Source: Candidatus Spongiihabitans sp. (GTDB lineage: Bacteria > Pseudomonadota > Gammaproteobacteria > Arenicellales > Poriferihabitantaceae). Taken from it: 64,000 bases of DNA. Positions 10,417-55,565 of the stretch are shown here, one piece after another. The stretch is from contig NZ_OZ252047.1 in NCBI RefSeq assembly GCF_965247905.1, positions 724,414-788,413 on the forward strand. The letters are read 5' to 3'. A program made the translations under genes and the position numbers. Position 1 is the stretch's first letter; every line of letters starts with the position of its first letter. Below the pieces are notes generated by a model, which searched no databases, was not told the DNA's origin, and was given only the letters and a program-made list of their open reading frames with translations.

Positions 10417-10519
10417 AGCAAACGCTCCAAATGAAAACTATTAAAAAATTCTTGGCCAATAAAAATAACATGAAAGGCTGATTATACGGCATCCACCAAA
10501 AAACTTCCGTTCATCGACT

Positions 10520-11215
10520 TCAGTCCGGCCGACTGGAATCCGGCCGGCTTGAATCCAACTTGAAACCACGCGCCAACAGATACACTTCTCTTGATTCGGC
10601 TCGAGAGGCATCAGGTTTAACCATTTGCACTTGATCAAAATGTTCGATAAATCTTGTTCGGACGAAGCCGACAGACTCGCCTTCAAACAGCTTGGTTAGC
10701 ACCCTGCCGCGCGCCTTTAACGCGTGTCGGCAAAAAGCCAATATCGCATCCTGCAATTGCGCGGCATTGGCTTGATCGGTGCTGCGAATACCGGTGATAT
10801 TGGGGGCCATATCCGATAAAACAAGGTCAATTTTACTATCCCCGAAACAATCCCCGAAATGATCCATGGCCCGCCGCTGGGTATCGCGGTCGCAGAAATC
10901 ACCTTGAATGAACCGCACCTTCGCGATTTCCTTCATCGGCAACAAGTCCACGCCGACAATTTGATTGCTGCCGACCACTTTGGAAGCCGCATACTGCGAC
11001 CAGCTGCCCGGCGCCGAACCCAGATCAACTATTTTTGAGTTTGGTTTGATCAAGTGATGCTTTCGATCGATTTGTTCGAGTTTAAAAACAGACCGCGCGC
11101 GCAATCCCTGGCTGCGCGCCTGCCTGACAAACGGGTCTCGATTTTGCTTGGCCGCCCACTGGGACTTTTTATTGCCGGACGTTTTATGACTTGTATGGGG
11201 ACGGCTGCTCGGCAT
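10520..11215 (-). CDS. rlmE: 23S rRNA (uridine2552-2'-O)-methyltransferase RlmE/FtsJ
   Basis: RDPFVRQARSQGLRARSVFKLEQID...VDLGSAPGSWSQ...VLSDMAPN. Conserved rlmE-ftsH-glmM order. The C-terminus carries the duplicated DSSRP-DSSRP. Confidence 0.9.
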   Translation of the reverse strand: MPSSRPHTSHKTSGNKKSQWAAKQNRDPFVRQARSQGLRARSVFKLEQIDRKHHLIKPNSKIVDLGSAPGSWSQYAASKVVGSNQIVGVDLLPMKEIAKVRFIQGDFCDRDTQRRAMDHFGDCFGDSKIDLVLSDMAPNITGIRSTDQANAAQLQDAILAFCRHALKARGRVLTKLFEGESVGFVRTRFIEHFDQVQMVKPDASRAESREVYLLARGFKLDSSRPDSSRPD

Positions 11216-11236
11216 TATTCATAACTTCCACTAGCG

Positions 11237-15622: not shown

Positions 15623-16017
15623 GCTCCACTAAACAAATAGTCGATAATTACTATGCCTGCCTAAAACAGCGGGATCGTGAAAATCTTCTTGGATTATTGT
15701 CGCCCGATATTGTGGTCACCTATCACGCCCAAGCCGGTCAATTCCCCTGGGCCGGAAAATTTTATGGCATAGCAGGATTCGACCAATTCTTTTCCATCAT
15801 CAAAGACCATCTTGACATCCTCGAGGTCACGATTATCGACAGCATCGTCGCCGACAATAAAATGGTCAATCAATGCCAAGGCCGCTGGCAATACAAAGCC
15901 ACCGGGCATATCGTCGAAGGCGGCATGGTCAACGTATTCACCGTGGAAGGAGACAAGATCACAGGCTACGATGTCTATGCCGACACCGCCGCATTTGCGG
16001 CCGGATTGCCCACATAA
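15619..16017 (+). CDS. SnoaL/NTF2-like small protein
   Basis: MSSTKQIVDNYYACLKQRDRENLLGLLSPDIVV...; 132 aa. Its ATG overlaps the PhyH stop (ATGA at 15619-15622). Confidence 0.6.
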   Translation: MSSTKQIVDNYYACLKQRDRENLLGLLSPDIVVTYHAQAGQFPWAGKFYGIAGFDQFFSIIKDHLDILEVTIIDSIVADNKMVNQCQGRWQYKATGHIVEGGMVNVFTVEGDKITGYDVYADTAAFAAGLPT

Positions 16018-16040
16018 TCGGCCACTGCTGGCGTAGAATA

Positions 16041-18950: not shown

Positions 18951-18972
18951 ACAATAACTTTGGATACGCGCC

Positions 18973-20901
18973 ATGCCGATTAAATACATTCCCTACGCGC
19001 CTGAGCCGATTCAAGGGCAGGCGGTATTGAACAATATCGCGCGTGCGCAACGCGTGTTGAGTTATCGCGACAACGACAAGGTGTTCGAAAAAATACAACG
19101 CGGCTTGCCGTCTTATGAGATTGAGGAGGTTGAACAAGTCGGCAAGAAAAACAAGGATTGGAACAACCTGATGTTGCGCGGCGAATGTTTGGCGGCTTGC
19201 GCCTATCTGAAGGAGCGCGGCATAAAAGTGGATTTAGTCTATATCGACCCGCCGTTTGCCAGCGGCGCCAACTACGCCAAACAAGTTTTTATTCGCCGCA
19301 ATCCGAAACTTGCGGCGGAAATCGAACATGCCGAACAAAAAATGGAACTTGCGGAATTGCAATCGTTTGAAGAAACCATGTATGGCGATATATGGCGGAA
19401 AGAGGATTATTTGAATTGGATGTATGAAAACTTGACGGCGATTCAAAGCGTGATGTCGGACAGCGCCAGCATCTATGTTCATCTCGATCATCATATCGGG
19501 CATTATGTGAAAATTTTGTTGGATGAGATTTTTGGCGAGGAAAATTTCAGGAATGAAATATCTTATGGTTACAGAATTCAAGGAATAAACCAAAAATGTT
19601 GGCCGAGAAAACACGATCTTATATTCTATTACACAAAAAATAATGACTACATATTTAATCCTGAAAAAGAAAAGAATATTTATGAAAAGCCATTCATCGA
19701 TACCAAAAAAGAAGAAGCAAACTTGCGACTGTTAAAGGAGAAAGAAAAACATGAAATAATTAAATGTCTAAATGCAAATAAGCCAATCCCCGATAAGTAT
19801 AAAAATAAAATCTTCAACAAGTATTATTCTGAAGTATTTGTCAGGGATATTTGGGATTGTGACTACACGAAACCTATCATAAGCGGTTCAAGTGAATATA
19901 CTTATTACGCAACACAAAAATCAGAAGGTTTGTTAACACGCATTATCAAAGCCAGCAGTGACGAAGACATGATTGTCGCCGACTTCTTCGGCGGCAGCGG
20001 CGTCGCCGCCAAAGTCGCGCACGATTTGAATCGCAAATTTATCCATTGCGATGTCGGCGTGAATAGTCTGCAAATCAGCCGCGACCGCTTGCAACAAGCC
20101 GACGCGGCTTTTCAAATTCTGGAAGTCAGGGACGGTGTGCATTTATTTCGCAACCCGCAACAAACTATGGACAAACTCGCCAAACTGATTCCCGGTTTAG
20201 TGCAAGGCATCGAAGGCGTTGGTGATTTTTGGTTTGGCGCAATCCAGGATAAAAAACTCGGTGTCATTCCCGTCTATGCGCCGAATTTAATCGACAGCGG
20301 CGAAAAGGTGTTGGACCAAACGATTGTCAACCAAATCATCAACGAGCAACTACAAATACTGGAACAGAAATGGGAAGAATTTCCGGCTAAAGCCATCGTC
20401 TATTATGTCGATATCGACGACGAGGAAGAATTAAAAAAATTCATTAGAGACATCAATCCGACCACGACCGAAATCGAACTGCGCGACCTGAAGTTATTGC
20501 TGCACGATTTGATTGACAACGATAATTTTGAATACGCAATCAGCAACAACGATCTGAACGGCTACTGCGTCAAAATCACGCAGTTTCACAGCGACCGCCT
20601 GCAACAAAAAATCAACGAATACAATGCGAAAAGAGCATTGAAAAATAATCCGATAACACAAATCAAAATCAGCGAAAATGGTTTGGAGCTGATTGAATGG
20701 CTGTCGCTGGATTGCAAAAACGCCAGCGGTGCATGGCGCAGTAGCAATGAAATCAAAATCGATAAAAAAGGCCGCATAATCATCGACGGCAACCAAACCA
20801 AGGAATTTTGGAACGGCAAAATCAACTCGCCCGAAAAACCGCTAAGAATAAAAATCCGCAATATTGCCGGCGATGAAACCATCAAACAACTGGCAGAATA
20901 A
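18973..20901 (+). CDS. beta-class (N6-adenine/N4-cytosine) DNA methyltransferase, Type III Mod-like
   Basis: Motif IV VDLVYIDPPFASGANY comes before motif I MIVADFFGGSGVAAKVA. A non-conserved AT-rich insert lies between them and there is a long C-terminal region. 642 aa, 22 nt after res. Confidence 0.8.
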   Translation: MPIKYIPYAPEPIQGQAVLNNIARAQRVLSYRDNDKVFEKIQRGLPSYEIEEVEQVGKKNKDWNNLMLRGECLAACAYLKERGIKVDLVYIDPPFASGANYAKQVFIRRNPKLAAEIEHAEQKMELAELQSFEETMYGDIWRKEDYLNWMYENLTAIQSVMSDSASIYVHLDHHIGHYVKILLDEIFGEENFRNEISYGYRIQGINQKCWPRKHDLIFYYTKNNDYIFNPEKEKNIYEKPFIDTKKEEANLRLLKEKEKHEIIKCLNANKPIPDKYKNKIFNKYYSEVFVRDIWDCDYTKPIISGSSEYTYYATQKSEGLLTRIIKASSDEDMIVADFFGGSGVAAKVAHDLNRKFIHCDVGVNSLQISRDRLQQADAAFQILEVRDGVHLFRNPQQTMDKLAKLIPGLVQGIEGVGDFWFGAIQDKKLGVIPVYAPNLIDSGEKVLDQTIVNQIINEQLQILEQKWEEFPAKAIVYYVDIDDEEELKKFIRDINPTTTEIELRDLKLLLHDLIDNDNFEYAISNNDLNGYCVKITQFHSDRLQQKINEYNAKRALKNNPITQIKISENGLELIEWLSLDCKNASGAWRSSNEIKIDKKGRIIIDGNQTKEFWNGKINSPEKPLRIKIRNIAGDETIKQLAE

Positions 20902-41064: not shown

Positions 41065-43134
41065 TTATATTTCTACATACTCGCGCTTGAACGGCACCGC
41101 GTCGGCATCAACATCGCAGTCAAATTCTCGTGCGAATCGGTGTCCGTGATAAACCGCGGCGGCGATGGTCGATGGTGCGAGACAGTCTCCGATTCGGGTT
41201 ACGGATTTGATTCCGGCATGGTCCAGGGACTCAGCATCGTTATCGAGGTCAAAATACAATGAGGATAGCGGACGCCGAGCAGTCACCAATACCAGATATT
41301 GGGCGTTTATGGTTTGATTTTTAGCGCTCACGATATGCTCCAGAATAATTTGATTGCTGTTTACGCGCTGGACTTGATGTTTTTCAACAATGGCAATGCC
41401 CAAATCCCCTAAGCGTTTTTCGATATGAATCTGCTCAAGGGTGTTGTGAGTCCAAGCCGAGACATCTGCAGCAGGAGTGACTAAAGTCACTTTGGCACCG
41501 GCATTTACCAGGCATTCGGCGATCACGCCGCCCATGTAATAGTGATCATCATCGTACACCACGACATGCCCGCTAATCTGCTTCCCGGCCATGACATCAT
41601 CCGGGGTCAGGATATGCACACTCTTATCGCGGGGTATGGGTTGGCGGTGGACTCTGCCAATACCATCGCGGTCCCATTTTGACCCGGTGGCGACAACCAC
41701 ATGCTGGATATTCAATTGTTTGGCAAATTCCAGTACCTGCTGCTTGTTTATCTCGCTGTGCAGAAAAACCTGAACATTATCCAGTTTGTCGATTTGCCCC
41801 AACCGATAATCAACCACTCGTCTCCAGGCGGATAATCCGGGCAGTTGGCTTTCACAATGCACCCGTCCGCCCGCATGATCATTTGCCTCTGCCACGGTGA
41901 CGTTATATCCCCGCCGGCCTAAAGACATCGCAGATTCCAGTCCGCTTGGGCCGGCGCCAACGATTAAAATCGCGTCGCTGGAGGCGCCCTTTTCAATTTT
42001 CTCGGGATGCCATCCGCGCCGAAATTCTTCCCCCATAGTTGGGTTTTGGGTGCATCGAATCGGTGCGATGATCATATCGCCAGAGACGCAGATATTGCAG
42101 CCGATGCATTCGCGAATATCCTCGACCTGGCCGCTTTCAATTTTACTGGGCAGAAATGGATCGGCAATAGACGGGCGCGCCGCGCCAATCATGTCGAGAA
42201 TGCCTCGTTTGATCTGGGAAACCATGGCGTCCGGCGAGGTGAACCGACCGACGCCCACCACCGGTTTGGTGGTGAGTTTGTTCACGAACGCAGTATATTT
42301 TTCCTGGAATCCTTGTTCGGCGAACCGCGATGTCGCCGAATCATTAGACCAGTCGCTGATGTTCACGTCCCAAATATCTGGATGTTCAGCAAGCATTTCC
42401 ACGACCTCACGGCCTTCATTTTCGGCAACCATGCCGCGCGCTCCGATTAACTGGTCAACCGTAAAACGCAGCGCAATGCCGCAGGTATCTCCCACTGCGT
42501 CTTTGGTATCTTCAAGCAACTCCCGCAAGAACCGCACCCGGTTTTCCAGACTGCCGCCGTATTCATCGGTGCGCTGGTTTCGCTGGGGGGAAATAAAATG
42601 AAAAGGTAACGCAAGGTCATGGGCGGCATAAACATAAACGATGTCGAAGCCCATTTGTTTGGAGCGCAACGCCGCCTTTCGATGCCAGCGCCGCACGTCG
42701 GCAATGTCTCGTTTGCTCATGGCATAGGCTTGCGCCGGGTGATAACTGTCAATCATCATTTCCGATACCCCCATCGCCGGCAGCCTGCTGTAATGATTGG
42801 CGGAGGCGTGTCCGTTATGCGTGATTTCAATGGCGGCAAGCGCGCCGTGTTCGTGGATGGCATCGGCAGTCATCCGCAATCTCTTCATGTCGCCTTCATC
42901 CCATAACCTGCCTTCGATGTACGGCGACCACTCTGAGCCAGGGTGAATTTCAACTTCCTGAGTGGACACAACCGCCCAGCCGCCTTGCGCTTTCATGCCG
43001 CGCATCGCCGCTTCCGCTTTCGGATAAGCATGACCCATGCCATTGCAATGGGGCACCTGATAGAAACGGTTGTGTGCGGTTACCGGCCCGATCTTGACTG
43101 GCTCAAATAAAATATCGTATCGTGGGTCTCGCAT
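41065..43134 (-). CDS. trimethylamine/dimethylamine dehydrogenase-like flavoprotein (OYE-like FMN domain + 4Fe-4S + ADP-binding domains)
   Basis: N-terminus RDPRYDILFEPVKIGPVTAHNRFYQVPHCNGMG parallels TMADH, including the FMN-linking Cys. Also CIGCNICVS...C (4Fe-4S) and VGAGPSGLE. Confidence 0.75.
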   Translation of the reverse strand: MRDPRYDILFEPVKIGPVTAHNRFYQVPHCNGMGHAYPKAEAAMRGMKAQGGWAVVSTQEVEIHPGSEWSPYIEGRLWDEGDMKRLRMTADAIHEHGALAAIEITHNGHASANHYSRLPAMGVSEMMIDSYHPAQAYAMSKRDIADVRRWHRKAALRSKQMGFDIVYVYAAHDLALPFHFISPQRNQRTDEYGGSLENRVRFLRELLEDTKDAVGDTCGIALRFTVDQLIGARGMVAENEGREVVEMLAEHPDIWDVNISDWSNDSATSRFAEQGFQEKYTAFVNKLTTKPVVGVGRFTSPDAMVSQIKRGILDMIGAARPSIADPFLPSKIESGQVEDIRECIGCNICVSGDMIIAPIRCTQNPTMGEEFRRGWHPEKIEKGASSDAILIVGAGPSGLESAMSLGRRGYNVTVAEANDHAGGRVHCESQLPGLSAWRRVVDYRLGQIDKLDNVQVFLHSEINKQQVLEFAKQLNIQHVVVATGSKWDRDGIGRVHRQPIPRDKSVHILTPDDVMAGKQISGHVVVYDDDHYYMGGVIAECLVNAGAKVTLVTPAADVSAWTHNTLEQIHIEKRLGDLGIAIVEKHQVQRVNSNQIILEHIVSAKNQTINAQYLVLVTARRPLSSLYFDLDNDAESLDHAGIKSVTRIGDCLAPSTIAAAVYHGHRFAREFDCDVDADAVPFKREYVEI

Positions 43135-44394: not shown

Positions 44395-45861
44395 TTAATA
44401 GGCGAATTGTTTGATCGCCTGATTGCATAGCGTAATCAAGGCTCCGATCCAGGGCAGGATTGCAATGATTATGATGACGTTAATCGCCAGCACAATTTTA
44501 CGGTCGGATTGCACCGCGATAGGCGCGTCGGCCTCGGGCATCGTCTGCGGCGCATCAAAGTAAACCAGTTTGATGATGCGCAAGTAGTAGTAGGCGCCAA
44601 TCACCGCCAACACCACCGCGACAATAGCAACCCATTGCAGATTGGCGTCAATGAGCGCCTGAATAACCGATAGTTTTGCGAAGAAACCGGCGGTCGGCGG
44701 AACCCCCGCCATGGAAAACATCAATATCAGGAACAGTAGCGCGATGAACGGACTACGCTTGCTCAAGCCTTTGAGATCGTTGAGCTGGTCGGATTCAAAA
44801 TCCTTGGTGGATAAATACAATATCAATCCAAATGCCGCGCAACTCATGGTCGCGTAAATGAGGATATAAAACAAGGATGCGCTATAGCCTGCTACACTGC
44901 CCGCGAGTATGCCGAACAGGAAAAATCCCATGTGAGAAATTGTCGAGTACGCCAGCATTCGCTTCAAATTGTTCTGGGCAATGGCGATAACATTTCCGAC
45001 TGCCACCGACAAAAGCGCCAGGATTATCAGCATCTGCTGCCACTGCCCATGTAAGTCTTCCAGCCCGCCCACCAAAAGACGCATTATCAGGGCAAACGCG
45101 GCAATCTTGGGCGCCGCGCCAATAAAGGCAGTGGTCGATGTGGCAGCACCGTGATACACATCAGGAATCCACATATGAAAAGGAACCGCACCAATTTTGA
45201 ATGCCAGTGCGACCACAATAAAAACAACGGCAAGGGCAAGCGCCAGATTATCCTGGCCCATGTTGGCTGCAACCGAGCTAATCACGGCAAGTTCGAGGGC
45301 GCCGGTCAATCCGTAAAGCAACGACATGCCGTAAAGCAAGACACTGGATGCCAGCGCGCCGAGCACGAAGTATTTCATTGCCGCTTCAACCGCCAGTTTG
45401 TCATCTCGAAAAAAGGCAATCATTGAATACAGACACAACGACATCAATTCCAGGCCCAGGTACAACGTCAACAAGTGATTAGCCGATGCCATCACCATCA
45501 TCCCACAAACCGCAAACAGCCCCAAAACATAATATTCGTTCTTAAAGATATTTCGATCCTGATTGTATTGTCGACCATAGATAAAGATCGTGGCGGACAA
45601 CAAACAAATAGCCACTTTCAGCAGATCGCCCATCGGGTCGTCAACAAACAGGCCGTTAAAGGCAAATGCGGGTTGGGTAGCAAAATCACTGACGATCAAT
45701 ACGCAGGCGGCGAGCAAGGTGAAAACGCTCAACCAAAAGCAAACGATGTCGTTACGCTCCTTGTTAATAAACAACCCCATAATCAAAATTGCCGATGCCA
45801 TTGAAGCGACAAAAATCTCCGGCAACGCCAATGCGGTTTGTAGTGATTGCAGGGTCATCAT
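44395..45861 (-). CDS. nuoN: NADH-quinone oxidoreductase subunit N
   Basis: 488-aa polytopic antiporter-like subunit; last gene of the nuo series. Confidence 0.9.
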   Translation of the reverse strand: MMTLQSLQTALALPEIFVASMASAILIMGLFINKERNDIVCFWLSVFTLLAACVLIVSDFATQPAFAFNGLFVDDPMGDLLKVAICLLSATIFIYGRQYNQDRNIFKNEYYVLGLFAVCGMMVMASANHLLTLYLGLELMSLCLYSMIAFFRDDKLAVEAAMKYFVLGALASSVLLYGMSLLYGLTGALELAVISSVAANMGQDNLALALAVVFIVVALAFKIGAVPFHMWIPDVYHGAATSTTAFIGAAPKIAAFALIMRLLVGGLEDLHGQWQQMLIILALLSVAVGNVIAIAQNNLKRMLAYSTISHMGFFLFGILAGSVAGYSASLFYILIYATMSCAAFGLILYLSTKDFESDQLNDLKGLSKRSPFIALLFLILMFSMAGVPPTAGFFAKLSVIQALIDANLQWVAIVAVVLAVIGAYYYLRIIKLVYFDAPQTMPEADAPIAVQSDRKIVLAINVIIIIAILPWIGALITLCNQAIKQFAY

Positions 45862-45929
45862 CGTGATTTGCTTGGCGTAATTTGCTTGGCGTGGTTTAGT
45901 CGGCGAGTCGCGCTAATCAATCGGGCGCG

Positions 45930-47264
45930 CTAATCAATCAGCCCGAGTTTTTTCAGTTTCGCGAGCAACTGCGCTTGCGTGCCGACGCCTTTGGTGGAGT
46001 TGCACGCGCCGCATAAAAGCTGCAGGTTGGCGAGATGATCCGAGCCGCCGTGATCTTGCGGGACTATGTGATCCACGGTGAAGTTGCGGAACGGGAACGA
46101 ATGTCCGCAGCCGTTGCAGCGGCCTTCCTGCTTGCCGAACAATTCATGCTGGTGCGTCCGGTAATTGACCGGCTCGCCGCGCAAGTCGGTGCGCCGCGGC
46201 AGGTCGTGGCGGTGAATCAAATCGAAGCGGTCGATCAGGTCGGCTTCGTGCGCCATGCGAAGTTTGACCAGGTCGGCGGCTTTGCTCGACAGGTCAATGC
46301 CGAGCCAACGGCGTTTTAGTTTCTCGGCGGCGATCAGGGTGGTCGCGCAACCGCAAAACGGGTCAAGGATGAGATCGCCCTCATCGCTGCTCGCTTTGAT
46401 GATGCGGTCTAACAACGCCAACGGCTTTTGCGTGGGATAGCCGACGCGTTCTTTGCTGGAGTTGTTAATTTTGTCAATCGCCCAAACACTGGCGACCGGC
46501 GCGCCATATTCCATGGCATCTCCCAAATAGCGCTTGACCCGCTTCCCGTCGCCCGCGTCCGACAACACATACTTGCGCCCGTGCTCGTCTTCGTGGACTT
46601 TTTGTCTTCGTTTTGCAATATATTCCTGCTCGCTCTCCCATGGATCGCTGTAGCTATTGAAACGGTTGGTTTTTCCTTTGGCGTAAAAATAAACCACATC
46701 GTGACGGCTCTCAAATTTATGCTTGAGTCGTTTGTTCCAGCCGCTATAACTCCAGATAATTTCATTCCTAAAATTCGTCCTGCCAAACACTGCGTCCATC
46801 AGAATTTTCAGGTAATGCGACGCGGTCGGGTCGCAGTGCAGATAAATGGACGCGGTCGGTTTCATCAGCCGCTTCATCTCCATTAAGCGCACCGCCATCA
46901 TGATCAAATACGATTTCATGCCTCTGCCGTATGCCAACTCGCTGGCGGCGATCGCGCTATAAATCGCGGGGTCTTTGTCGGCGATTTCGCCGTGCCACGC
47001 ATTGTCCACATCGTTCAAAGTCCAAGTATCCTTGAACGCCGCGCCGGCCGCCTTTGAGCCAACCGGCGCGGCGTAGTCGCGGTTGGAATTGAACGGCGGG
47101 TCAAGGTAGATGAGGTCGACGGTGCGCGAGTTGAGGCCACGCATGATTTCCAGATTGTCGCGCGTCCACAGCGTGCCGGACTTGAAGTTCTCTTTCGGCT
47201 TCGCCTTCGTTTTCGTGATCACTTGTTTTGCCATGTTGGTCTCTGTTTTCATTTTCATTTTCAT
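45930..47264 (-). CDS. beta-class DNA methyltransferase fused to a C-terminal HNH endonuclease domain
   Basis: DLIYLDPPFNSNRDY (motif IV), YPTQKPLALLDRII, DLILDPFCGCATT (motif I). C-terminus RCNGCGHSF...VDHIVPQDHGGSDHLANLQLLCGACNSTKG (HNH). Start is uncertain (ATGs at 47264/47258/47252/47234; the 47330 extension overlaps nuoM). Confidence 0.8.
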   Translation of the reverse strand: MKMKMKTETNMAKQVITKTKAKPKENFKSGTLWTRDNLEIMRGLNSRTVDLIYLDPPFNSNRDYAAPVGSKAAGAAFKDTWTLNDVDNAWHGEIADKDPAIYSAIAASELAYGRGMKSYLIMMAVRLMEMKRLMKPTASIYLHCDPTASHYLKILMDAVFGRTNFRNEIIWSYSGWNKRLKHKFESRHDVVYFYAKGKTNRFNSYSDPWESEQEYIAKRRQKVHEDEHGRKYVLSDAGDGKRVKRYLGDAMEYGAPVASVWAIDKINNSSKERVGYPTQKPLALLDRIIKASSDEGDLILDPFCGCATTLIAAEKLKRRWLGIDLSSKAADLVKLRMAHEADLIDRFDLIHRHDLPRRTDLRGEPVNYRTHQHELFGKQEGRCNGCGHSFPFRNFTVDHIVPQDHGGSDHLANLQLLCGACNSTKGVGTQAQLLAKLKKLGLID

Positions 47265-47292: not shown

Positions 47293-48783
47293 TCATCGGC
47301 AGAGCACCGGGCATTTTGAAATATCCACATGCCGCAATAAGTTTTCGATGGAAGTATGCATCACCTCGAGCACCGGATTGGGCCAAATTCCAACCACCAG
47401 AACCAGTGCGGCAAGAATCCCAAGCATTAAAATTTCACGGCTGTTGACATCTTCCAAAGCGGCAACATCCTGATTGACAACTTTGCCGTAAATGACGCGT
47501 TTCACCATCCACAAGGTGTAGGCCGCGCCAAAAATCAGGGTTAGCGCGGCAATGATGGCAAACCAGGGATTGGCTTGGAAGGCACCGAGAATGACTAAAA
47601 ATTCACCGACAAAGCCAGAAGTGCCGGGCAGGCCGGTATTGGCCATGGCGAACAGCACAAACAATGCGGCGAAAACCGGCATAGGCGTAGCAATGCCGCC
47701 GTAGGTGTCGATCATGCGCGAATGCGTTCGGTCATACAGCACGCCGACGCATAAAAACAAGGCCCCGGAAATAAACCCATGCGAGATCATTTGCATCAGC
47801 GCGCCTTCGGCGCCCTGAGCGTTAAAAATAAACAAGCCCAAAGTAACGAAGCCCATGTGAGAAATCGAAGAGTAGGCGATCAGTTTTTTCATATCCTGCT
47901 GAACCAACGCCACCAGAGCGATATACACCACCGCAATCAGCGAAAGCGTAATCATCAACCAGGCAAGTTCATGGCTGGCATCAGGCGTGATCGGCAGGCT
48001 CAACCGAATGAACCCGTAGCCACCCATCTTCAGCATCACCGCGGCCAAGATGACCGAGCCGCCGGTCGGGGCTTCGACATGGGCATCGGGCAGCCAGGTA
48101 TGCACCGGGAACATCGGCACTTTTACTGCGAATGCGCTGAACAATGCCAGGAAAATCAGGATTTGCGCCTTGAGCGTCAAGGGCAGGGCATGGTAATCCA
48201 GTATGCTGAAACTGCCGCTGGCGTTGTAGAGATACAGCAACGCCACCAACATCAGCAAGGAGCCCAACAAGGTATAAAGGAAGAACTTGATAGTCGCGTA
48301 AATTCGGTTGGGGCCGCCCCAAATACCGATAATCAGGAACATCGGAATGAGCATGGTTTCCCAGAACACATAGAACAACACCGCGTCCAATGCCGAAAAA
48401 ACGCCGATCATGACCCCTTCCATAATCAAAAACGCGGCCATGTATTGGGCGACGCGCTCGGTGATGACTTGCCAGCCGGCAATAATCACAACCACGGTTA
48501 ATAAGGTGGTCAGCAAGATTAACGGCATGGAAATGCCGTCCACGCCAATTGAATAGTAAATATTGAAGGCACTGATCCAGCTATGATGCTCTGTAAACTG
48601 CATATTGGCGGTGCCGGCATCAAATCCGCTATACAGCGAAATACTGAGCAAGAATATAATCACGGAAAAACCGAGCGCCAGTTTGCGCGCAATGGCGGCG
48701 CGTTGATCATTGCCAGTGGCCAGCACCAGCACGCCGGCGACAATGGGCAGCCAGATGAGCGCACTGAGCAGTTTATTTTCCAT
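47293..48783 (-). CDS. nuoM: NADH-quinone oxidoreductase subunit M
   Basis: 496-aa antiporter-like subunit, in position between nuoL and nuoN. Confidence 0.92.
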   Translation of the reverse strand: MENKLLSALIWLPIVAGVLVLATGNDQRAAIARKLALGFSVIIFLLSISLYSGFDAGTANMQFTEHHSWISAFNIYYSIGVDGISMPLILLTTLLTVVVIIAGWQVITERVAQYMAAFLIMEGVMIGVFSALDAVLFYVFWETMLIPMFLIIGIWGGPNRIYATIKFFLYTLLGSLLMLVALLYLYNASGSFSILDYHALPLTLKAQILIFLALFSAFAVKVPMFPVHTWLPDAHVEAPTGGSVILAAVMLKMGGYGFIRLSLPITPDASHELAWLMITLSLIAVVYIALVALVQQDMKKLIAYSSISHMGFVTLGLFIFNAQGAEGALMQMISHGFISGALFLCVGVLYDRTHSRMIDTYGGIATPMPVFAALFVLFAMANTGLPGTSGFVGEFLVILGAFQANPWFAIIAALTLIFGAAYTLWMVKRVIYGKVVNQDVAALEDVNSREILMLGILAALVLVVGIWPNPVLEVMHTSIENLLRHVDISKCPVLCR

Positions 48784-50791: not shown

Positions 50792-51097
50792 TCAGCCTTT
50801 GAGCGAATCCAGTTGGTCGACGTTGATGGTGTGGCGCGCGCGAAACAGCACGATCAGAATGGCCAGGCCAATCGCGATTTCCGCGGCGGCAACGGTCAAA
50901 ATGAAAAACACGAACACCTGGCCGGCGATATCTGCAAGATAATGGGAGAAAGCGATGAAGTTAATATTAACCGCCAACAGCAGTAATTCAATCGACATCA
51001 ACAAGATCACCAGGTTTTTTCGATTCAGGAAAATGCCCACCACGCCGATGGAGAACAATACTGCGCCCAGGATTAAATAATGCGACAAGGGAATCAT
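50792..51097 (-). CDS. nuoK: NADH-quinone oxidoreductase subunit K
   Basis: 101 aa: [28 protein letters not shown]...[11 protein letters not shown]. Confidence 0.92.
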
Positions 51098-51756
51098 GAT
51101 TCGACCTCTTCAGGGGTGGATTCAGTCGGCGCGGCTTCAGTTAAAAATTCCGTTGCGCTGGGAGGGGCCGAGTCCATACTCACGATTCTTAGGCGATCCT
51201 CTCGATTGACCTGCACCTGAGAAGCGGGATTGTTGTATTTGGTGTTCGGCCGCCGGCGCATGGTCAACGCGATGGCGGCGATGATGGCGACTAGTAAAAT
51301 CAGCGCCGCGATTTCGAAGGCATAAACATACTGCGTGTAAATCCGGGCGCCCAAGGCTTTTGTATTGCTGTATTCAACCCCATATGCAGCCGGATTATTG
51401 TATTCACTAACATCAAAAGAGCCATACATTACCAAGGCAATTTCCAAAACCAGTAATACCGCGACCAAACCCCCAATTGGTAGATAACGGGTAAATCCAG
51501 CGCGTAATTTGGCCAGGTCAATATCCAGCATCATCACCACAAACAGAAACAGCACCATGACCGCGCCGACATAAACCAGCACCAGCACGATGGCCAGGAA
51601 CTCGGCTTGCAGCGTAATCCATACGCAAGCGGCGCTGAAAAACGCAAGCACCAGAAACAACGCTGATTTCACCGGATTGCGGATGGTCACCACCATGCCC
51701 GCGGCAAAAACCAGCGTTGCGCTGAAAGCGTAAAATGCGAATTGGAGAAAAGTCAT
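51094..51756 (-). CDS. nuoJ: NADH-quinone oxidoreductase subunit J
   Basis: [17 protein letters not shown]... from ATG 51756; stop overlaps the nuoK start. Confidence 0.88.
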
Positions 51757-52094
51757 GATGAGTGGACGGTTAACCACGATTGATTAAACTTAACCCATCG
51801 CAACACGCCGTTGAAATCCAACATTGGCGGTCGGCGGATTTCATATTTTACCGCCGAGGCTGGGACGGGTTTGATGATGGTGAATTGCCCGCCGTGCGGT
51901 TGCCAAGTAAAACAATGGGAGTCGCTTGCGGCATCGTGTCCCTGGAAATTTCTCCGCGTGTTTAGTTCCCAGCGATAATCATCTGGCACGAAGCGCGTTA
52001 TTTCTGATTCAAACATAGTGAATTGCAATTGATTCATATTTCGCACTAGCACGAGCAAGCGGTAGTCCTCGTATTCGCTCAGTGAACAAAGCAC
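51753..52094 (-). CDS. hypothetical protein (113 aa), last gene of the nuoI-nuoJ insert
   Basis: No recognisable motif. Its stop TGA (51755-51753) overlaps the nuoJ ATG (51756-51754). Start is GTG 52094 or ATG 52037. Confidence 0.5.
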   Translation of the reverse strand: MLCSLSEYEDYRLLVLVRNMNQLQFTMFESEITRFVPDDYRWELNTRRNFQGHDAASDSHCFTWQPHGGQFTIIKPVPASAVKYEIRRPPMLDFNGVLRWVKFNQSWLTVHSS

Positions 52095-52322
52095 TCATAA
52101 GTCCATACATTCATCAACAACCTCATTGGCTTTCGCGAGCAACGCATCAGGCATAACACGCCGCCCGTTTGACTGAAGCAAAAACGCTTCGGTCACTATC
52201 GCCATTGCGCGCGTGACCTGTTGATCTTCACCGCGCAAGTCCAACTCTGCCAGAGCGGCGGTGATGGAGGTGAAAAGTTTGGCGGTGTTTTTCGTGTCGG
52301 CATTCATACTGTTGCGCGCCAC
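52095..52322 (-). CDS. hypothetical protein (75 aa)
   Basis: Predicted helical, acidic C-terminus, no motif. Abuts the next ORF with no gap and overlaps the upstream DUF3883 gene by 19 nt. Confidence 0.45.
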   Translation of the reverse strand: MARNSMNADTKNTAKLFTSITAALAELDLRGEDQQVTRAMAIVTEAFLLQSNGRRVMPDALLAKANEVVDECMDL

Positions 52323-53041
52323 GATATTTGAATAAACTTTCTTTTTTCTTGCTTAAATGTCAAGCCAGTGTTGATGGGGTTGCGTATCGTTATGGCGAAA
52401 GGATCCTCATTGAAATTTTTGACCACATAAATGAAATAATCGTTTCTCAATCTATCGGCGACATCATACTCCTTGCTAGTGAGAACAATGTTGCCGGAAA
52501 TCGTGGCCAGCCCCTTGACTTCAACAGCAACAAAACTGTCTTGGGACGTTAATCGATGGAGCCGGAAATCGTAGCCACAACCTGTGTGGGTAACATCCTC
52601 TGCTCTTGTATCGAAAAATTCGCGTTCTGCTTGATAGTTTTGCGAGAAAAAGTTTTCCGCCGCTCGGCCGGTCAGAAGCCTCTTGGCGAAAGACTTGATT
52701 TCTTGTTCTGAGGTCTGGTCAGATATATTTATCGTGCCACCGGTGATGCGAATAATGAGCGAAAGCAACTCATCAATATCTCGGTCTTTGAATCTTTCAT
52801 AAATACACTTGCAGTGATCTCGCACGGGTCTGCCTCGCCAGCCTTTCCGCGCATTTGGAAATAATGGATCAAGCTCATCGCGATAGTTTTTTATGGACGT
52901 CGGTTTGGCGCCGATGGACAACCCCAAGACATTGTATGCCTCGTTGAATGAATCGAACCCCATGAGATCTAACCCTTGCTTGTCATGTTGAGCAAGATAT
53001 AAGCCGCACAAAATTGCTTTCTCGCGCACGCTTAACTTCAT
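52304..53041 (-). CDS. DUF3883-type (PD-(D/E)xK-like) restriction-endonuclease-like protein
   Basis: C-terminal GCGYDFRL...FVAVEVKGLATISGNIVLTSKEYDVADRLRNDYFIYVVKNF fits the DUF3883 pattern (GYD...EVK...S..E...A....Y.LY.V). The N-terminal ~100 aa are unassigned. Confidence 0.65.
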   Translation of the reverse strand: MKLSVREKAILCGLYLAQHDKQGLDLMGFDSFNEAYNVLGLSIGAKPTSIKNYRDELDPLFPNARKGWRGRPVRDHCKCIYERFKDRDIDELLSLIIRITGGTINISDQTSEQEIKSFAKRLLTGRAAENFFSQNYQAEREFFDTRAEDVTHTGCGYDFRLHRLTSQDSFVAVEVKGLATISGNIVLTSKEYDVADRLRNDYFIYVVKNFNEDPFAITIRNPINTGLTFKQEKRKFIQISWRATV

Positions 53042-53493
53042 AAGGCATGCCCGCCGCTGTGGGAAGCCAACTGCCGAACATTCTCCAGCACCGCCGCTTG
53101 CGGTTTCTTTTTTTCAAGTATTCGCACAATGTCAAAAAACAGCGTCCCGCGAATATCGTCAAAGCCACGTCGCTTGCCGATGATGCTAAATGGCTGGCAG
53201 GGAAACCCGGCGCACATTAGATCGTGGTTTGGAACGTCCTCGGCGGCAATCCGCTTTATATCGCCGTGTGGCCACATTCCAAAGTTTTCGGCATAGGTCG
53301 CGCGCGCAGGTTCATCAATATCCGAAGCGAACACGCATTGCATACCGTTTGCAACGGCAGCCAGGTGAAAACCGCCGATGCCGCAGAATAGATCGACAAA
53401 GGTTTTCACGCGCAACCTCGACGAAAGCCAACTGCGCAGTGGTTGTCGGCAAAAAGCGTGCGGTCGTGAATTTCCGATTGCATAACTAGTCAA
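53038..53493 (-). pseudogene. DNA (cytosine-5) methyltransferase, N-terminal fragment only (motifs I-VI)
   Basis: FVDLFCGIGGF (motif I), GFPCQPFS (motif IV), AVLENVRQLASHSGG (motif VI). It ends after 151 aa with the stop overlapping the next ATG. No TRD or motifs VIII-X. Confidence 0.75.
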
Positions 53494-53503
53494 GACCTAT
53501 TTT

Positions 53504-55018
53504 CTATTTATCCAACAAACTTTTAGGCATCAATTCTTCCTGAAACGCCTCCCCGGTGCGCGGATGCGCGAGCGGCGGCATTATCGGCTCAATGTTCTGA
53601 AAATGCTCGTCAATGGTGTACATGATCAAGCGGTTATATTCCTTCGCGCCCACTTGCAGTGTTCCCGCTTGGGCGATACATTTTCTGACTGATGGCGTAT
53701 CCCATTTTTCCAAAGTAATGAACACACCAATCGCCGCTTTGCCGCTGGCGAGCATGCCGAAAAAAGCGCGCAAAGAATCGATGCTCGGCTTGCCGCCTTT
53801 CACTTGCGCGATACACAAATTCTGTTCTTTCCCCGCGCCATAAATCAGCGCGCGCCCATCGATGCCGCCATCGCCGCGTTGCACTGCGTTCGGCGCAAAG
53901 CCGGGGATGCGCGTGACCGCCCACTTCTCGAAATCAAACGGGTTTCTCTCGGCAAAATCGACCGCCCCTTTCAAGTCTTTTGACACTCCCGCTAAATCGA
54001 TGCGCAAATCTTTCATGCGCTCGCGCCGCACCACTTCAATAGCATATGCGGAAATATCGATGCCAATCCAATCGCGTTTCAATAGATGCGCGGCTTCAAT
54101 CGTGGTGCCGCACCCGCAAAATGGATCCAATACCAGATCGCCTTCGTTGCTACTCGCCATAACAATTCGTTTCAGCAAGGCAAGCGGCTTTTGCGTTGGG
54201 TAGCCGAGACGTTCTTTATTTGTAGGCCCTCCTAAAATTTTAATATCAGACCACCAATCCGTCATAGACGGATTCCCTCCCTTGAATTCTTGAGGTGAAA
54301 GTCCCGAGGGAATCTTGCCCGTATTGACTGCGCGGTTATACTTTTCCCAGTCAAAAACAGTGACCATGTTCTTTGATAGGTTTGCGTTATAGCCTTTGCG
54401 CAGCCCGCTATCAAATGTCTTTTTTGAGCCTTCCGTAGGTTTGCCTAATTGAACGTTGAATTTAGCCTTGGGCGATTTAAAATAAAATAAAATAACATCA
54501 TGTTTTTGTTGCCATTTACTCGCCTTTGAAGGCATCCCCCTATAACACCAAATAATTTCATTCCTGAAATTCCCTTTGCCAAACACCTCATCCATAATGA
54601 GTTTTAAATAGTGCGACGCAGTCGGGTCGCAATGCAAATACATGCTACCGGTATTCTTCAACAAGCGATGCATCGCGGCAATCCGTTCGGCCATATACGA
54701 AAGATACGAAAGCATGCCGCTGCCGTCCGGATAGATTTCGCTGAATGCGCGAATGGCGCGATGCGCCGGGTGGGCAATCGCGCTGTTTATCAAATCGACG
54801 CGCCGCTCGGCATCGATGTCCCATTCCCAAGTGTCGGTGAATGCGGTCAGTTGGGCGAGGTCGTTTTTATCGCCGCCATTCCTTTGCGTGCCGAAAAGAA
54901 TGTTGTAGTTCGCCTTGCTGTTGAACGGCGGGTCCAGGTAAATCAAGTCAACAGAGTTGTCGTCCCATTTGCCCATTACCTCCAAACAATCGCCGTAGTA
55001 AAGCGTGTTTTTTTTCAT
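53504..55018 (-). CDS. beta-class DNA methyltransferase fused to a C-terminal Mrr-like (PD-(D/E)xK) restriction endonuclease domain
   Basis: VDLIYLDPPFNSKANY, YPTQKPLALLKRIV, DLVLDPFCGCGTT. C-terminus QRGDGGIDGRALIYG...CIAQVKGGKPSIDSLRAFFGML...IGVFITLEKW (Mrr_cat-like D...QxK). Confidence 0.8.
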   Translation of the reverse strand: MKKNTLYYGDCLEVMGKWDDNSVDLIYLDPPFNSKANYNILFGTQRNGGDKNDLAQLTAFTDTWEWDIDAERRVDLINSAIAHPAHRAIRAFSEIYPDGSGMLSYLSYMAERIAAMHRLLKNTGSMYLHCDPTASHYLKLIMDEVFGKGNFRNEIIWCYRGMPSKASKWQQKHDVILFYFKSPKAKFNVQLGKPTEGSKKTFDSGLRKGYNANLSKNMVTVFDWEKYNRAVNTGKIPSGLSPQEFKGGNPSMTDWWSDIKILGGPTNKERLGYPTQKPLALLKRIVMASSNEGDLVLDPFCGCGTTIEAAHLLKRDWIGIDISAYAIEVVRRERMKDLRIDLAGVSKDLKGAVDFAERNPFDFEKWAVTRIPGFAPNAVQRGDGGIDGRALIYGAGKEQNLCIAQVKGGKPSIDSLRAFFGMLASGKAAIGVFITLEKWDTPSVRKCIAQAGTLQVGAKEYNRLIMYTIDEHFQNIEPIMPPLAHPRTGEAFQEELMPKSLLDK

Positions 55019-55058: not shown

Positions 55059-55565
55059 TCACCGATACGGCGCGTCCTGTTTGCGCGCCGCGGCGATTTC
55101 CTGTTCGTGTTTGTCGCCGATTTCCAGCAAGCCTTGTTTGTCGATTATGCACTCGCTATTTTTCTCCATGTGAAATTCGTGGATGTCGGTCATGACGATG
55201 GCATCCACCGGACACGCTTCCTCGCAAAAACCGCAATAAACGCATTTGAATAAGTCTATGTCATATCTGGTGGTGCGGCGCGTGCCGTCTTCACGCTCTT
55301 CGGAGTCGATGGTAATTGCCAAAGCAGGGCAGACGGCTTCACACAATTTACAGGCAATGCAGCGTTCTTCACCATTGGCATAACGTCGCAATGCATGCAG
55401 CCCGCGAAATCTCGGCGATTTCGGGGTTTTTTCTTCGGGATACATGATGGTGGTTTTCTTGCGAAACAATTGTCGACCGGTCACCCCGAGCCCGGCTCGC
55501 AACTCTTGCAGTGAAAAAGTTTTGTACCACTGTTTGCACGCGTTTATTATTTGTGGCAGCCGCAT
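55059..55565 (-). CDS. nuoI: NADH-quinone oxidoreductase subunit I
   Basis: Two CxxCxxCxxxCP ferredoxin motifs ([24 protein letters not shown]). Confidence 0.93.

What the first reader, a model, noticed from the sequence alone, without database searches (positions are those of the whole stretch)
45930..47264. MTase-HNH fusion between nuoM and nuoN is a paralogue of the MTase-Mrr gene with a swapped nuclease domain
The two nuo-embedded MTases share long collinear stretches. Examples: S(I/M)YLHCDPTASHYLK(I/L)(L/I)MD(A/E)VFG..NFRNEIIW.Y, and R(V/L)GYPTQKPLALL.RI(I/V).ASS(D/N)EGDL(I/V)LDPFCGC. There are also ~85% identical nucleotide patches, e.g. 46818-46852 vs 54612-54646. After the MTase core, one carries an HNH domain (DHIVP...N..LLC..CN) and the other a Mrr-type PD-(D/E)xK domain. 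My inference is a modular family of single-chain MTase+nuclease genes colonising intergenic sites of the same conserved operon. An HNH nuclease next to a conserved junction recalls free-standing homing endonucleases. The fused MTase could protect the host target while the nuclease drives invasion of empty alleles.
Basis: partly seen in the sequence, partly recalled or inferred. Interest (0 to 1): 0.75.

Follow-up and report, generated by a model that had tools for sequence, protein, structure and literature searches.

The report
Methylase-nuclease gene inside respiratory operon
A sponge-symbiont bacterium carries an intact gene fusing a DNA methylase to an HNH nuclease, wedged between two genes of its respiratory complex I operon; it is most likely a one-protein restriction-modification enzyme sitting in a spot where related bacteria hold other such defence genes, not a homing element.

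Summary
Window 45930-47264 (-) encodes an intact beta-class DNA methyltransferase (PF01555) fused to a zinc-ribbon HNH nuclease, exactly between nuoM and nuoN. Its methylase core is 43% identical (E 7e-74) to the methylase-Mrr gene between nuoI and nuoJ.

The 'paralogue with a swapped nuclease' is an ancient family split, not a local event. Each fusion has many full-length homologues, and the two sets of cores cluster apart.

The host is Candidatus Spongiihabitans. The HNH fusion occurs in sponge-symbiont genomes of many phyla.

Among seven related lineages the nuoM/N junction holds this gene, two tandem copies, a 9-kb Type III island, or nothing. The nuoI/J junction holds two different cargoes or nothing. 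None of 70 environmental nuo operons is occupied. These junctions are lineage-specific restriction-modification hotspots.

Family-wide there is no nuo preference. About a fifth of copies lie next to an IS1595 transposase, and some sit inside complete transposons.

Genes in tandem arrays share near-identical ends but have unrelated central target-recognition cassettes.

Best reading: a self-contained single-chain restriction-modification enzyme. Homing is not supported.

The parts
47293..48783 (-). nuoM (complex I subunit M). Its C-terminal ISKCPxxCR tail and stop codon are kept in empty-site relatives, so the insert begins after the stop.
   Evidence: Pfam Proton_antipo_M + Oxidored_q5_N; junction sequences of L087, L089, L092 and L091
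45930..47264 (-). Methylase-HNH fusion gene. Start codons are possible at 47264 or 47234; the stop is at 45930-45932.
   Evidence: P0001 is 100% identical and 434 aa
46752..47234 (-). N-terminal methylase lobe with motif IV (DPPFNS) through YLHCDPTASHYLK / FRNEIIW. It is 80-91% nt identical to the positional orthologue in L002.
   Evidence: Invariant columns in A1; sliding identity
46425..46784 (-). Variable central block, the presumed target-recognition domain (approximate limits). It is unrelated between positional orthologues and between tandem copies.
   Evidence: No invariant columns between W161 and G244; 33-46% nt identity to L003 g1 here against 80-91% on either side; low pLDDT at residues 156-189
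46245..46505 (-). C-terminal methylase lobe: GYPTQKPLALL and motif I, DPFCGCATT (AdoMet binding). Similarity to the methylase-Mrr gene ends at ~46263.
45987..46118 (-). Zinc-ribbon HNH nuclease domain: CNGC...DH...N...CGACN.
   Evidence: Pfam HNH/HNH_5; invariant C373 C376 D388 H389 C408 C411 N412; fold matches to Cas9 HNH and the Gme HNH nicking enzyme
45862..45929 (-). Spacer between the methylase-HNH stop and the nuoN start. Two strain-specific tandem duplications (17 nt and 14 nt) lie in or abut it. The 17-nt one runs to 45939, across the methylase stop codon.
   Evidence: the repeat finder D8 and D9; both are absent from sister strain L001
44395..45861 (-). nuoN (complex I subunit N)
   Evidence: Pfam; named NuoN of Candidatus Spongiihabitans sp. 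by NCBI
53504..55018 (-). Methylase-Mrr fusion gene between nuoI and nuoJ. The Mrr-type domain is at about 53690-53911.
   Evidence: Pfam; family invariants E364 D383 D387 Q405 K407, a D...QxK motif
52304..53493 (-). Rest of the nuoI/J island: a truncated C5 cytosine methylase (151 aa, 53038-53493) and a NOV_C-domain protein (52304-53041).
   Evidence: Pfam; in strain L001 the C5 methylase is 311 aa and the 52082-53071 segment is replaced
55059..55565 (-). nuoI, upstream border of the second island
   Evidence: Pfam 4Fe-4S domains; synteny
51094..51777 (-). nuoJ, downstream border of the second island
   Evidence: Pfam Oxidored_q3

Best explanation
The gene encodes a self-contained, single-polypeptide restriction-modification enzyme.

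How it is built: a beta-class (Type III-Mod-like) N6A/N4C DNA methyltransferase whose single central target-recognition domain (TRD) sets the sequence specificity, fused to a C-terminal zinc-ribbon HNH nuclease.

How it would work (inferred): the methylase marks host sites, and the HNH domain cuts or nicks DNA that carries the same site unmethylated. Swapping the TRD then changes restriction and modification together.

What is shown:
- It belongs to a very large, uncharacterised family found across sponge-symbiont phyla.
- The family moves as cargo of IS1595-type transposons and of other islands.
- The family diversifies by exchange of TRD cassettes between conserved gene ends, often in tandem arrays.
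- In this genome it has no mobility gene. It sits co-oriented in the nuoM/nuoN spacer. That spacer and the nuoI/nuoJ spacer act as lineage-specific hotspots, where related Poriferihabitaceae carry different restriction-modification cargo or nothing.

Also inferred: it is co-transcribed with nuo, and cargo turnover occurs by recombination in the flanking nuo genes.

The methylase-Mrr gene is the sister architecture (same core subfamily, PD-(D/E)xK-type nuclease). The two separated long ago.
For: Architecture and intact catalytic residues.

Family:
- All 120 best hits are full-length relatives; 118 of them are annotated with both the methylase and HNH domains.
- The 80 best species-representative loci are almost all MAGs of typical sponge-symbiont taxa from many phyla.
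- They are mostly solitary, with no recurrent partner nuclease gene.

TRD exchange:
- Tandem copies in L003, L061 and L076 are 88-100% identical over most of the ~420 nt at the 5' end and ~500 nt at the 3' end. The centre is 8-60% identical.
- The window gene against L003 g1 is 80-91% identical over most of the flanking parts and 33-46% in the centre.
- L008 and L072 come from different orders. Their 2.2-kb transposon copies are 98-100% identical over most of their length, apart from a ~300-nt TRD.

Hotspot:
- nuoM/N is occupied in 3 of 7 related lineages, by one methylase-HNH, two methylase-HNH, or a 9.2-kb Type III island.
- nuoI/J is occupied in 2 of the 6 lineages where it could be measured, with different cargo.
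- Empty sites exist in close relatives.
- Controls: 0 of 70 environmental operons occupied at nuoM/N and 0 of about 27 at nuoI/J. Fisher p is about 5e-4 by my own arithmetic.

Vehicle:
- A 3130-bp unit with perfect 19-bp terminal inverted repeats and an IS1595 transposase occurs in 3 copies.
- An IS1595 transposase lies next to the gene in about 16 of 80 loci.

Co-transcription: no excess of promoter or terminator signals inside the insert.

Background: sponge symbionts are enriched in restriction-modification genes (PMC5649159, PMC5099237). Allelic substitution and TRD diversity at restriction-modification loci are established (PMC2853133).
Against: - No enzyme of this architecture has been characterised. 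No curated family exists in NCBIfam, PADLOC matches only its methylase models, and no full-length solved structure was found.
- Neither methylation nor cleavage was observed here, and the recognition site is unknown.
- An HNH domain could act as a nickase or serve another role.
- The known single-chain enzymes (MmeI-like) have a different layout: an N-terminal PD-(D/E)xK nuclease and a gamma-class methylase.
- Four-fold-site identity between the window and L002 is higher in the C-terminal third of the gene (76%) than in the nuo genes (48-58%). So some horizontal exchange into the same site is not excluded.
Confidence: 0.6

Rival explanations
1. Homing-type selfish element. The HNH nuclease cleaves the insert-free nuoM/nuoN junction, repair copies the gene into it, and the fused methylase protects the occupied allele.
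For: - The same junction is occupied by family members in two lineages whose nuoM and nuoN are only ~75% nt identical, while the closest relative L087 is empty.
- The C-terminal third of the gene is more alike at four-fold sites (76%) than the flanking genes (48-58%).
- A Poribacteria genome has a family member between nuoD and nuoE.
- Tandem copies insert precisely, each with a repeated 15-nt spacer.
Against: - None of the 80 best family loci is at nuoM/N.
- One nuo hit in 80 is what chance gives; about 0.26 are expected by my estimate.
- The same junction holds a Type III island without an HNH domain. The other junction holds unrelated cargo.
- The N-terminal part of the gene is as diverged as the flanks, 59% at four-fold sites.
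- Another methylase-Mrr paralogue is also positionally conserved between the two lineages. This points to vertical descent with losses.
- The documented vehicle is an IS1595 transposon.
- Specificity sits in a freely swapped TRD. That does not fit a fixed homing site.
Confidence: 0.1
2. Orphan regulatory methylase. The gene mainly sets an epigenetic mark. The HNH domain is a DNA-binding or nicking accessory, for example in repair, replication or transposon movement, and is not a restriction nuclease.
For: - There is no separate nuclease partner, and sources annotate it only as a DNA methyltransferase.
- Phage and other relatives carry the core alone.
- Its place inside a housekeeping operon suggests constitutive, domesticated expression.
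Against: - HNH catalytic and zinc-binding residues are invariant across the 25 diverse family members aligned.
- Rapid TRD turnover and multi-specificity tandem arrays are typical of defence specificity genes, not of conserved regulatory methylases.
- The gene alternates at the same locus with bona fide restriction-modification systems.
Confidence: 0.2
3. Decaying remnant: a formerly mobile gene stranded in the operon and no longer functional.
For: - The neighbouring island contains a truncated C5 methylase.
- No mobility gene or terminal repeats remain in the window.
Against: - The ORF is full length, all family-invariant residues are present, and it is 100% identical in protein to the copy in a sister strain whose flanks differ by 1-2%.
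- The positional orthologue is kept intact at ~75% flank divergence.
Confidence: 0.04

Closest known systems
Single-chain Type IIG/IIC restriction-modification enzymes (MmeI family)
   Same: Nuclease, methylase and one TRD lie in one polypeptide. Specificity changes by TRD substitution while the rest of the gene stays conserved. Allelic TRD diversity in a Type IIG gene is described in PMC2853133; the MmeI details are from my own knowledge.
   Different: The layout is reversed and made of different parts. Here the methylase is beta-class (PF01555, motif IV before motif I), is N-terminal, and is followed by a C-terminal HNH. In MmeI-type enzymes the nuclease is an N-terminal PD-(D/E)xK domain and the methylase is gamma-class. 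No activity data exist for the family found here.
Type III Mod subunits (EcoP15I-like)
   Same: Same methylase subfamily and a central variable TRD. Identity is 33% over 364 aa to the Mod protein of the island at the same junction in L091. PADLOC Type III methylase models hit.
   Different: There is no Res helicase-nuclease partner. The nuclease is fused and is of HNH type.
Chromosomal defence hotspots bounded by core genes, with allelic substitution of restriction-modification systems (E. coli immigration control region; Kobayashi-type substitutions)
   Same: Related genomes carry different restriction-modification cargo or nothing at the same site. No integrase is present (concept in PMC12707154 and PMC2853133).
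   Different: The sites are short intergenic spacers inside the essential 14-gene nuo operon. The cargo is co-oriented with the operon, and two junctions of one operon are used.
IS1595-family transposons with passenger genes
   Same: Relatives of the gene lie between IS1595-type terminal inverted repeats together with the transposase, and have 8-bp flank duplicates.
   Different: The window copy has no transposase or terminal repeats. I found no paper describing this passenger.
Free-standing HNH homing endonucleases of phages
   Same: An HNH nuclease gene sits in an intergenic spacer between conserved genes.
   Different: The gene is fused to a full methylase with a swappable TRD. There is no family-wide site fidelity, and no evidence of cleavage of the empty allele.

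Membership tests
Beta-class N6A/N4C DNA methyltransferase (Pfam PF01555) | Profile match above the curated cut-off | tested here: met
   158.9 bits against a cut-off of 26.7
Beta-class N6A/N4C DNA methyltransferase (Pfam PF01555) | Permuted motif order: catalytic (D/S)PP(Y/F) before the AdoMet-binding FxGxG, with the TRD between them | tested here: met
   DPPFNS lies near the N-terminus, DPFCGCATT near residue 292, and the variable block between them. Fold matches to M.RsrI, M.MboIIA, CcrM and M.BceJIV.
HNH nuclease (PF01844) | Catalytic His in DH, conserved Asn residues and two CxxC zinc-binding pairs | tested here: met
   C373 C376 D388 H389 N403 C408 C411 N412 are invariant or nearly so in 25 family members. 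Pfam E 6e-13.
Single-chain (Type IIC/IIG-like) restriction-modification enzyme | Nuclease and methylase in one polypeptide with a single specificity domain | tested here: met
   One ORF with one variable block
Single-chain (Type IIC/IIG-like) restriction-modification enzyme | Cleavage of DNA carrying the unmethylated recognition site, and protection by its own methylation | not testable with these tools
   Needs enzyme assays or methylome data
MmeI-like Type IIG family | N-terminal PD-(D/E)xK nuclease plus gamma-class methylase (N6_Mtase / MmeI_Mtase / Eco57I domains) | tested here: not met
   Pfam shows PF01555 plus a C-terminal HNH only. True MmeI-like genes occur elsewhere, in L001 and L257.
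Type III restriction-modification system | Mod methylase with an adjacent Res (ResIII helicase-nuclease) gene | tested here: not met
   The neighbours are nuoM and nuoN. A real Type III pair sits at window 15873-20901 and another in L091.
Free-standing homing endonuclease | Family members recur at one specific conserved target site across genomes | tested here: not met
   None of 80 species-representative loci is at nuoM/N. Neighbours are diverse housekeeping genes or transposases. Recurrence is seen only within Poriferihabitaceae.
Free-standing homing endonuclease | The nuclease cleaves the insert-free allele near the insertion point | not testable with these tools
IS1595-family transposon passenger | Gene enclosed with a DDE_Tnp_IS1595 transposase between terminal inverted repeats | tested here: not met
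   Not met in the window: no transposase and no terminal repeats. Met for relatives L004-L006, L008 and L072.
Core-gene-bounded defence hotspot | The same locus holds different defence cargo or is empty in related genomes, more often than in outgroups | tested here: met
   3 of 7 lineages at nuoM/N and 2 of 6 at nuoJ/I carry four cargo types. Controls: 0 of 70 and 0 of about 27.
Mrr-type PD-(D/E)xK nuclease (PF04471), for the compared gene | Profile match and a conserved D...(Q/E)xK motif | tested here: met
   25.8 bits against a cut-off of 21. E364 D383 D387 Q405 K407 are invariant in 24 homologues.

The most novel reading that the evidence does not exclude
The methylase-HNH genes are semi-autonomous specificity cassettes. 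Their near-identical 5' and 3' gene ends act as homology arms. Breaks made by the HNH nuclease stimulate the insertion or exchange of whole genes or TRD cassettes next to resident copies and at permissive operon junctions. The family would then drive its own spread and diversification across phyla within the sponge holobiont. This would be a new kind of nuclease-assisted 'cassette homing' of restriction-modification genes, with essential operons such as nuo used as deletion-proof landing sites.
Probability: 0.12. Interest if true: 0.85.

Novelty: new variant of a known kind. Interest (0 to 1): 0.55.

Why it matters
Three things would follow if the best reading is right.

1. It adds an uncharacterised architecture to the single-chain restriction enzymes: a beta-class methylase with a central TRD and a C-terminal HNH, plus an Mrr-fused sister. 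TRD cassettes are naturally interchangeable in this family. That makes it a ready source of new specificities and a simple system for studying how recognition is coupled to cutting.

2. One gene family has spread through many phyla of sponge symbionts, partly on IS1595 transposons. This gives a concrete molecular handle on the known enrichment of restriction-modification genes in sponge microbiomes, and on gene flow within that community.

3. Short spacers inside an essential, co-transcribed respiratory operon can serve as recurrent landing sites for defence genes. This bears on how selfish or defence genes secure expression and resist deletion.

Tried and rejected
- An exact look-up of the 444-aa product found nothing, because public gene callers start at 47234. 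It was solved through P0001.
- The metagenome-contig scan with NuoN returned only distant relatives (47-59% identity) and no close empty sites. I used it as the outgroup control instead.
- My greedy ORF neighbour analysis was noisy, with spurious 70-120-aa ORFs. I repeated it with ORFs of at least 120 aa and Pfam.
- Orientation is not enriched: both neighbours are co-oriented in 27 of 70 loci, so there is no family-wide operon embedding.
- Terminal inverted repeats or target duplications flanking the window insert: none found. The two short direct repeats in the 3' spacer turned out to be strain-specific tandem duplications absent from L001, not target-site duplications.
- The promoter/terminator scan shows nothing above shuffled expectation.
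- I considered a recent duplication of the two window methylases and rejected it.
- I considered the L087 nuoI/J methylase as a third member of the same subfamily and rejected it. It shows only motif-level similarity and has an SPPY motif.
- Literature searches found no description of the fusion family, of its IS1595 association, or of a nuo hotspot.
- I did not use the search of protein representatives, because counts would be dominated by methylase-only proteins.
Full report
**What is at the coordinates**

The minus strand of window 41-60 kb is a complete nuo (complex I) operon followed by ddl. Between nuoM (47293-48783) and nuoN (44395-45861) lies an intact ORF, 45930-47264. Pfam assigns it N6_N4_Mtase (E 2.4e-46) followed by HNH and HNH_5 (E 6e-13 and 7e-12).

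Between nuoI and nuoJ lies a 3.3-kb island (gap estimated in strain L001). Its first gene (53504-55018) is N6_N4_Mtase plus Mrr_cat. It is followed by a truncated C5 methylase and a NOV_C-domain protein.

The two PF01555 proteins align at 43% identity over 333 aa (E 7e-74). The alignment ends where the methylase core ends, and the C-terminal nuclease domains do not align.

The quoted nucleotide patch is 2 nt out of register: 9/35 as given, about 84% when shifted by my count, and the best blastn segment is 78.7% over 108 nt. The quoted peptide stretches are family-wide invariants.

**How the two genes are related**

Each fusion is a large family of its own.
- The HNH fusion has at least 120 listed relatives at 50-67% identity. 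All but two of them carry both the methylase and HNH domain annotations.
- The Mrr fusion has at least 120 full-length homologues at 49-78% identity.
- In both searches all 8000 scored candidates were significant.
- Methylase cores of 40 members of each family cluster cleanly into two groups. Mean identity is 61% and 57% within the groups and 45% between them.
- Phage contigs mostly carry the same core without any nuclease, at 36-57% identity.
- A Type III Mod protein shares 33% identity, including the 'diagnostic' motifs.

So 'paralogue with a swapped nuclease domain' is true as a statement about modular architecture. The swap is old and did not happen in this genome.

Both nuclease domains keep their catalytic residues across their families. 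For HNH these are CxxC, DH, N, CxxC-N. For Mrr they are E364, D383, D387 and Q405-x-K407.

An AlphaFold model has mean pLDDT 72. It shows a beta-class methylase fold (M.RsrI, M.MboIIA, CcrM, M.BceJIV) and a Cas9/Gme-type HNH domain, and it is least confident in the central variable block. No curated family or solved structure covers the fusion.

**Host and distribution**

A NuoN protein 100% identical to the window's is named by NCBI as from Candidatus Spongiihabitans sp.. This genus belongs to Arenicellales, Ca. Poriferihabitaceae, and is a known sponge symbiont (PMC12988363).

The 80 best species-representative genomic loci for the HNH fusion are almost all MAGs of typical sponge-symbiont taxa. 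They include Poribacteria, Dehalococcoidia, Caldilineaceae, Acidobacteriota, Binatia, Latescibacterota, Porisulfidus, Poriferihabitaceae and alpha- and gammaproteobacteria. Their sponge origin is inferred from the taxon names and record types.

Sponge symbionts are known to be enriched in restriction-modification genes (PMC5649159, PMC5099237). I found no paper describing this fusion family.

**Is there a junction preference?**

Family-wide, no.
- None of the 80 loci is between nuoM and nuoN.
- Immediate neighbours are diverse housekeeping genes.
- The gene is co-oriented with both neighbours in only 27 of 70 loci.
- One Poribacteria genome (L036) has a family member between nuoD and nuoE. One such case in 80 is within chance by my estimate.

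Within the window's own lineage, yes, but not for this gene alone. I sampled relatives by NuoN identity, given in brackets.
- L087 (93%): nuoM/N empty with a 36-nt spacer. nuoI/J holds an unrelated SPPY methylase plus a separate His-Me/Endonuclease-VII nuclease.
- L089 (83%), L092 (79%) and L093 (75%): both junctions empty.
- L091 (79%): nuoM/N holds a 9.2-kb co-oriented Type III-like island with Mod, an SMC/AAA protein, an SLFN/AlbA_2 protein and Res.
- L002 and L003 (77%): nuoM/N holds one or two methylase-HNH genes.

In 70 environmental nuo operons (NuoN 47-59% identical) the nuoM/N gap never exceeds 93 nt. In about 27 of them the nuoI/J gap never exceeds 183 nt. Three of seven lineages against none of 70 gives p of about 5e-4 (Fisher, my arithmetic).

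The insertions lie strictly between the nuoM stop and the nuoN start. The unusual NuoM tail ISKCPxxCR is kept in empty sites.

These two spacers therefore behave as restriction-modification hotspots with allelic substitution. That phenomenon is established for such loci (PMC2853133) and for core-gene-bounded defence islands (PMC12707154). Here it occurs inside an essential operon.

**Old resident or recent invader?**

The window gene and L002/L003 gene 1 are positional orthologues. Their nt identity is 80-91% over most of the outer parts of the gene but 33-46% in the central ~360 nt.

Four-fold-site identity between the window and L002:

| Region | Identity at four-fold sites |
|---|---|
| Flanking nuo genes | 48-58% |
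| N-terminal third of the methylase-HNH gene | 59% |
| C-terminal third of the methylase-HNH gene | 76% (n = 59) |

The N-terminal part thus fits vertical descent. The C-terminal part looks younger, by gene conversion or transfer.

A second methylase-Mrr paralogue (P0242/P0243) is also syntenic in both lineages, between an ABC transporter and malic enzyme. This favours long residence with losses. The empty site in the nearest relative L087 still shows a gain or loss within about 7% nt divergence.

The sister strain L001 is 98.4-99.4% identical over the region. It differs precisely in defence content: a replaced segment in the nuoI/J island, an extra 3.4-kb Eco57I-like plus ThsB-TIR island, and two small spacer duplications.

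**How the family moves and diversifies**

- In one 1.39-Mb contig the closest non-nuo homologue (P0003, 67%) occurs three times inside an identical 3130-bp unit. The unit is bounded by perfect 19-bp inverted repeats (GGTAATTATATACTTGACA). It contains a 233-aa ORF, the methylase-HNH gene and an IS1595 transposase. Its flanks indicate 8-bp target duplications.
- An IS1595-type transposase lies next to the gene in about 16 of the 80 loci.
- A 2.2-kb transposase plus methylase-HNH element is 98-100% identical over most of its length between a Poriferihabitaceae MAG and a Halioglobus MAG. The exception is a ~300-nt central block.
- Another close homologue (P0004, 65%) sits in an island with serine recombinases, a reverse transcriptase and an MmeI-like enzyme.
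- Tandem arrays occur in three unrelated lineages: L003 with 2 copies, L061 with 3 and L076 with 4. Copies share 88-100% identical 5' (~420 nt) and 3' (~500 nt) parts, while the central cassettes are unrelated at 8-60%. In L003 the extra copy brings its own 15-nt spacer.

This is the signature of TRD swapping between conserved frames, as known for Type I, Type III and Type IIG specificity genes (PMC2853133).

**Mechanism**

Shown:
- an intact methylase and HNH in one chain;
- a single hypervariable TRD;
- strong conservation of the nuclease residues;
- a solitary gene organisation;
- alternation with bona fide restriction-modification systems at one locus;
- carriage on transposons.

Inferred:
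- The protein is an autonomous restriction-modification enzyme in which one TRD directs both activities, so that TRD exchange creates new, self-compatible specificities.
- The window copy has no promoter or terminator signal of its own above chance and is read through with nuo.
- Hotspot turnover occurs by recombination in the conserved nuo flanks.

I put this at about 0.6. The homing reading gets about 0.1. The junction is shared by cargo without an HNH domain, the family has no site fidelity, specificity lies in a swappable TRD, and a transposase vehicle is documented. It stays open because cleavage of the empty junction is untested and because of the young-looking C-terminal part. An orphan methylase with an accessory HNH gets about 0.2, and a dead remnant is unlikely.

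**Novelty**

Mobile restriction-modification genes, allelic substitution and TRD exchange are all known. What I did not find described:
- this domain architecture as a very large family shared across sponge-symbiont phyla;
- its tandem multi-TRD arrays;
- its carriage by IS1595 transposons;
- the use of two intergenic spacers of the nuo operon as recurrent landing sites.

I class it as a new variant of a known kind, of moderate interest.

Noticed in passing
window 15873-20901 (+): A Type III restriction-modification pair sits in a low-GC patch (41-45% against about 52% elsewhere). It comprises a 1025-aa ResIII protein and a 642-aa PF01555 Mod, the latter 29% identical to the two nuo-embedded methylases. 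It is another acquired restriction-modification module in the same 64 kb.
   Followed up: partly
window 52082-53071 (nuoI/J island), versus L001 4182-5144: The C5 cytosine methylase is truncated to 151 aa in the window but is 311 aa in the sister strain L001. A ~990-nt segment that encodes the NOV_C domain in the window replaces an unalignable ~960-nt segment in L001. The rest of the region is 98-99% identical.
   Followed up: partly
window ~41120-41206, versus L001 16084-19538: Sister strain L001 carries a 3.4-kb insertion here that the window lacks. It encodes an Eco57I/N6_Mtase protein, two unknown ORFs and a Thoeris ThsB-like TIR protein. This is strain-level defence-island polymorphism downstream of the OYE-family oxidoreductase gene.
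   Followed up: partly
window 45862-45939; L087 9960-10000; L092 9936-10000: Short tandem duplications pile up in nuoM/N-junction spacers. In the window a 17-nt unit spans the methylase stop codon and a 14-nt unit lies next to the nuoN start; both are absent from L001. The empty junctions of L087 and L092 consist of 3-5 degenerate tandem copies of the last nuoM codons plus the stop. The cause is unknown: slippage, or scars of insertion and excision.
   Followed up: partly
L003 6028-8751; L061 27-3738; L076 8427-14347: Tandem arrays of 2, 3 and 4 methylase-HNH genes occur in a gammaproteobacterium and two Bacteroidota MAGs. The gene ends are near-identical and the central cassettes unrelated. 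In L076 the 126-128-nt spacers are also near-identical, and copies 3 and 4 are near-identical throughout.
   Followed up: yes
L004/L005/L006 5225-8354; L008 and L072 ~9007-11250: These are complete IS1595-family transposons carrying a methylase-HNH gene as passenger. One is 3130 bp with perfect 19-bp terminal inverted repeats and is present in three copies in one contig. Another is 2.2 kb and 98-100% identical over most of its length between two gammaproteobacterial orders, apart from the TRD.
   Followed up: yes
L036 8651-12537 (Candidatus Poribacteria): A methylase-HNH gene lies between nuoD and nuoE, co-oriented with them. This is a third nuo junction, in a different phylum. One such case among 80 loci is compatible with chance.
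   Followed up: partly
L254 6001-7404; L255/L256 6001-7422: A second methylase-Mrr paralogue (73-78% identical to the window's) occupies the same position in the sister strain of the window (the L001 contig) and in the L003 genome. It lies after an ABC-transporter ATPase gene and convergent with malic enzyme. A further paralogue (P0358, 49%) lies on the same 1.05-Mb contig.
   Followed up: partly
window 47247-47264: The 5' end of the ORF is a triple ATGAAA repeat (MKMKMK) upstream of the ATG at 47234 that public gene callers use. The true start codon is uncertain. The repeat is in frame, so it is not an on/off switch.
   Followed up: no
L091 1071-9744: The Type III-like island at nuoM/N carries two extra genes between Mod and Res: an 885-aa SMC_N/AAA_21 protein and a 404-aa SLFN_AlbA_2 plus HATPase_c_4 protein. 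This is an unusual four-gene arrangement that I did not examine further.
   Followed up: no
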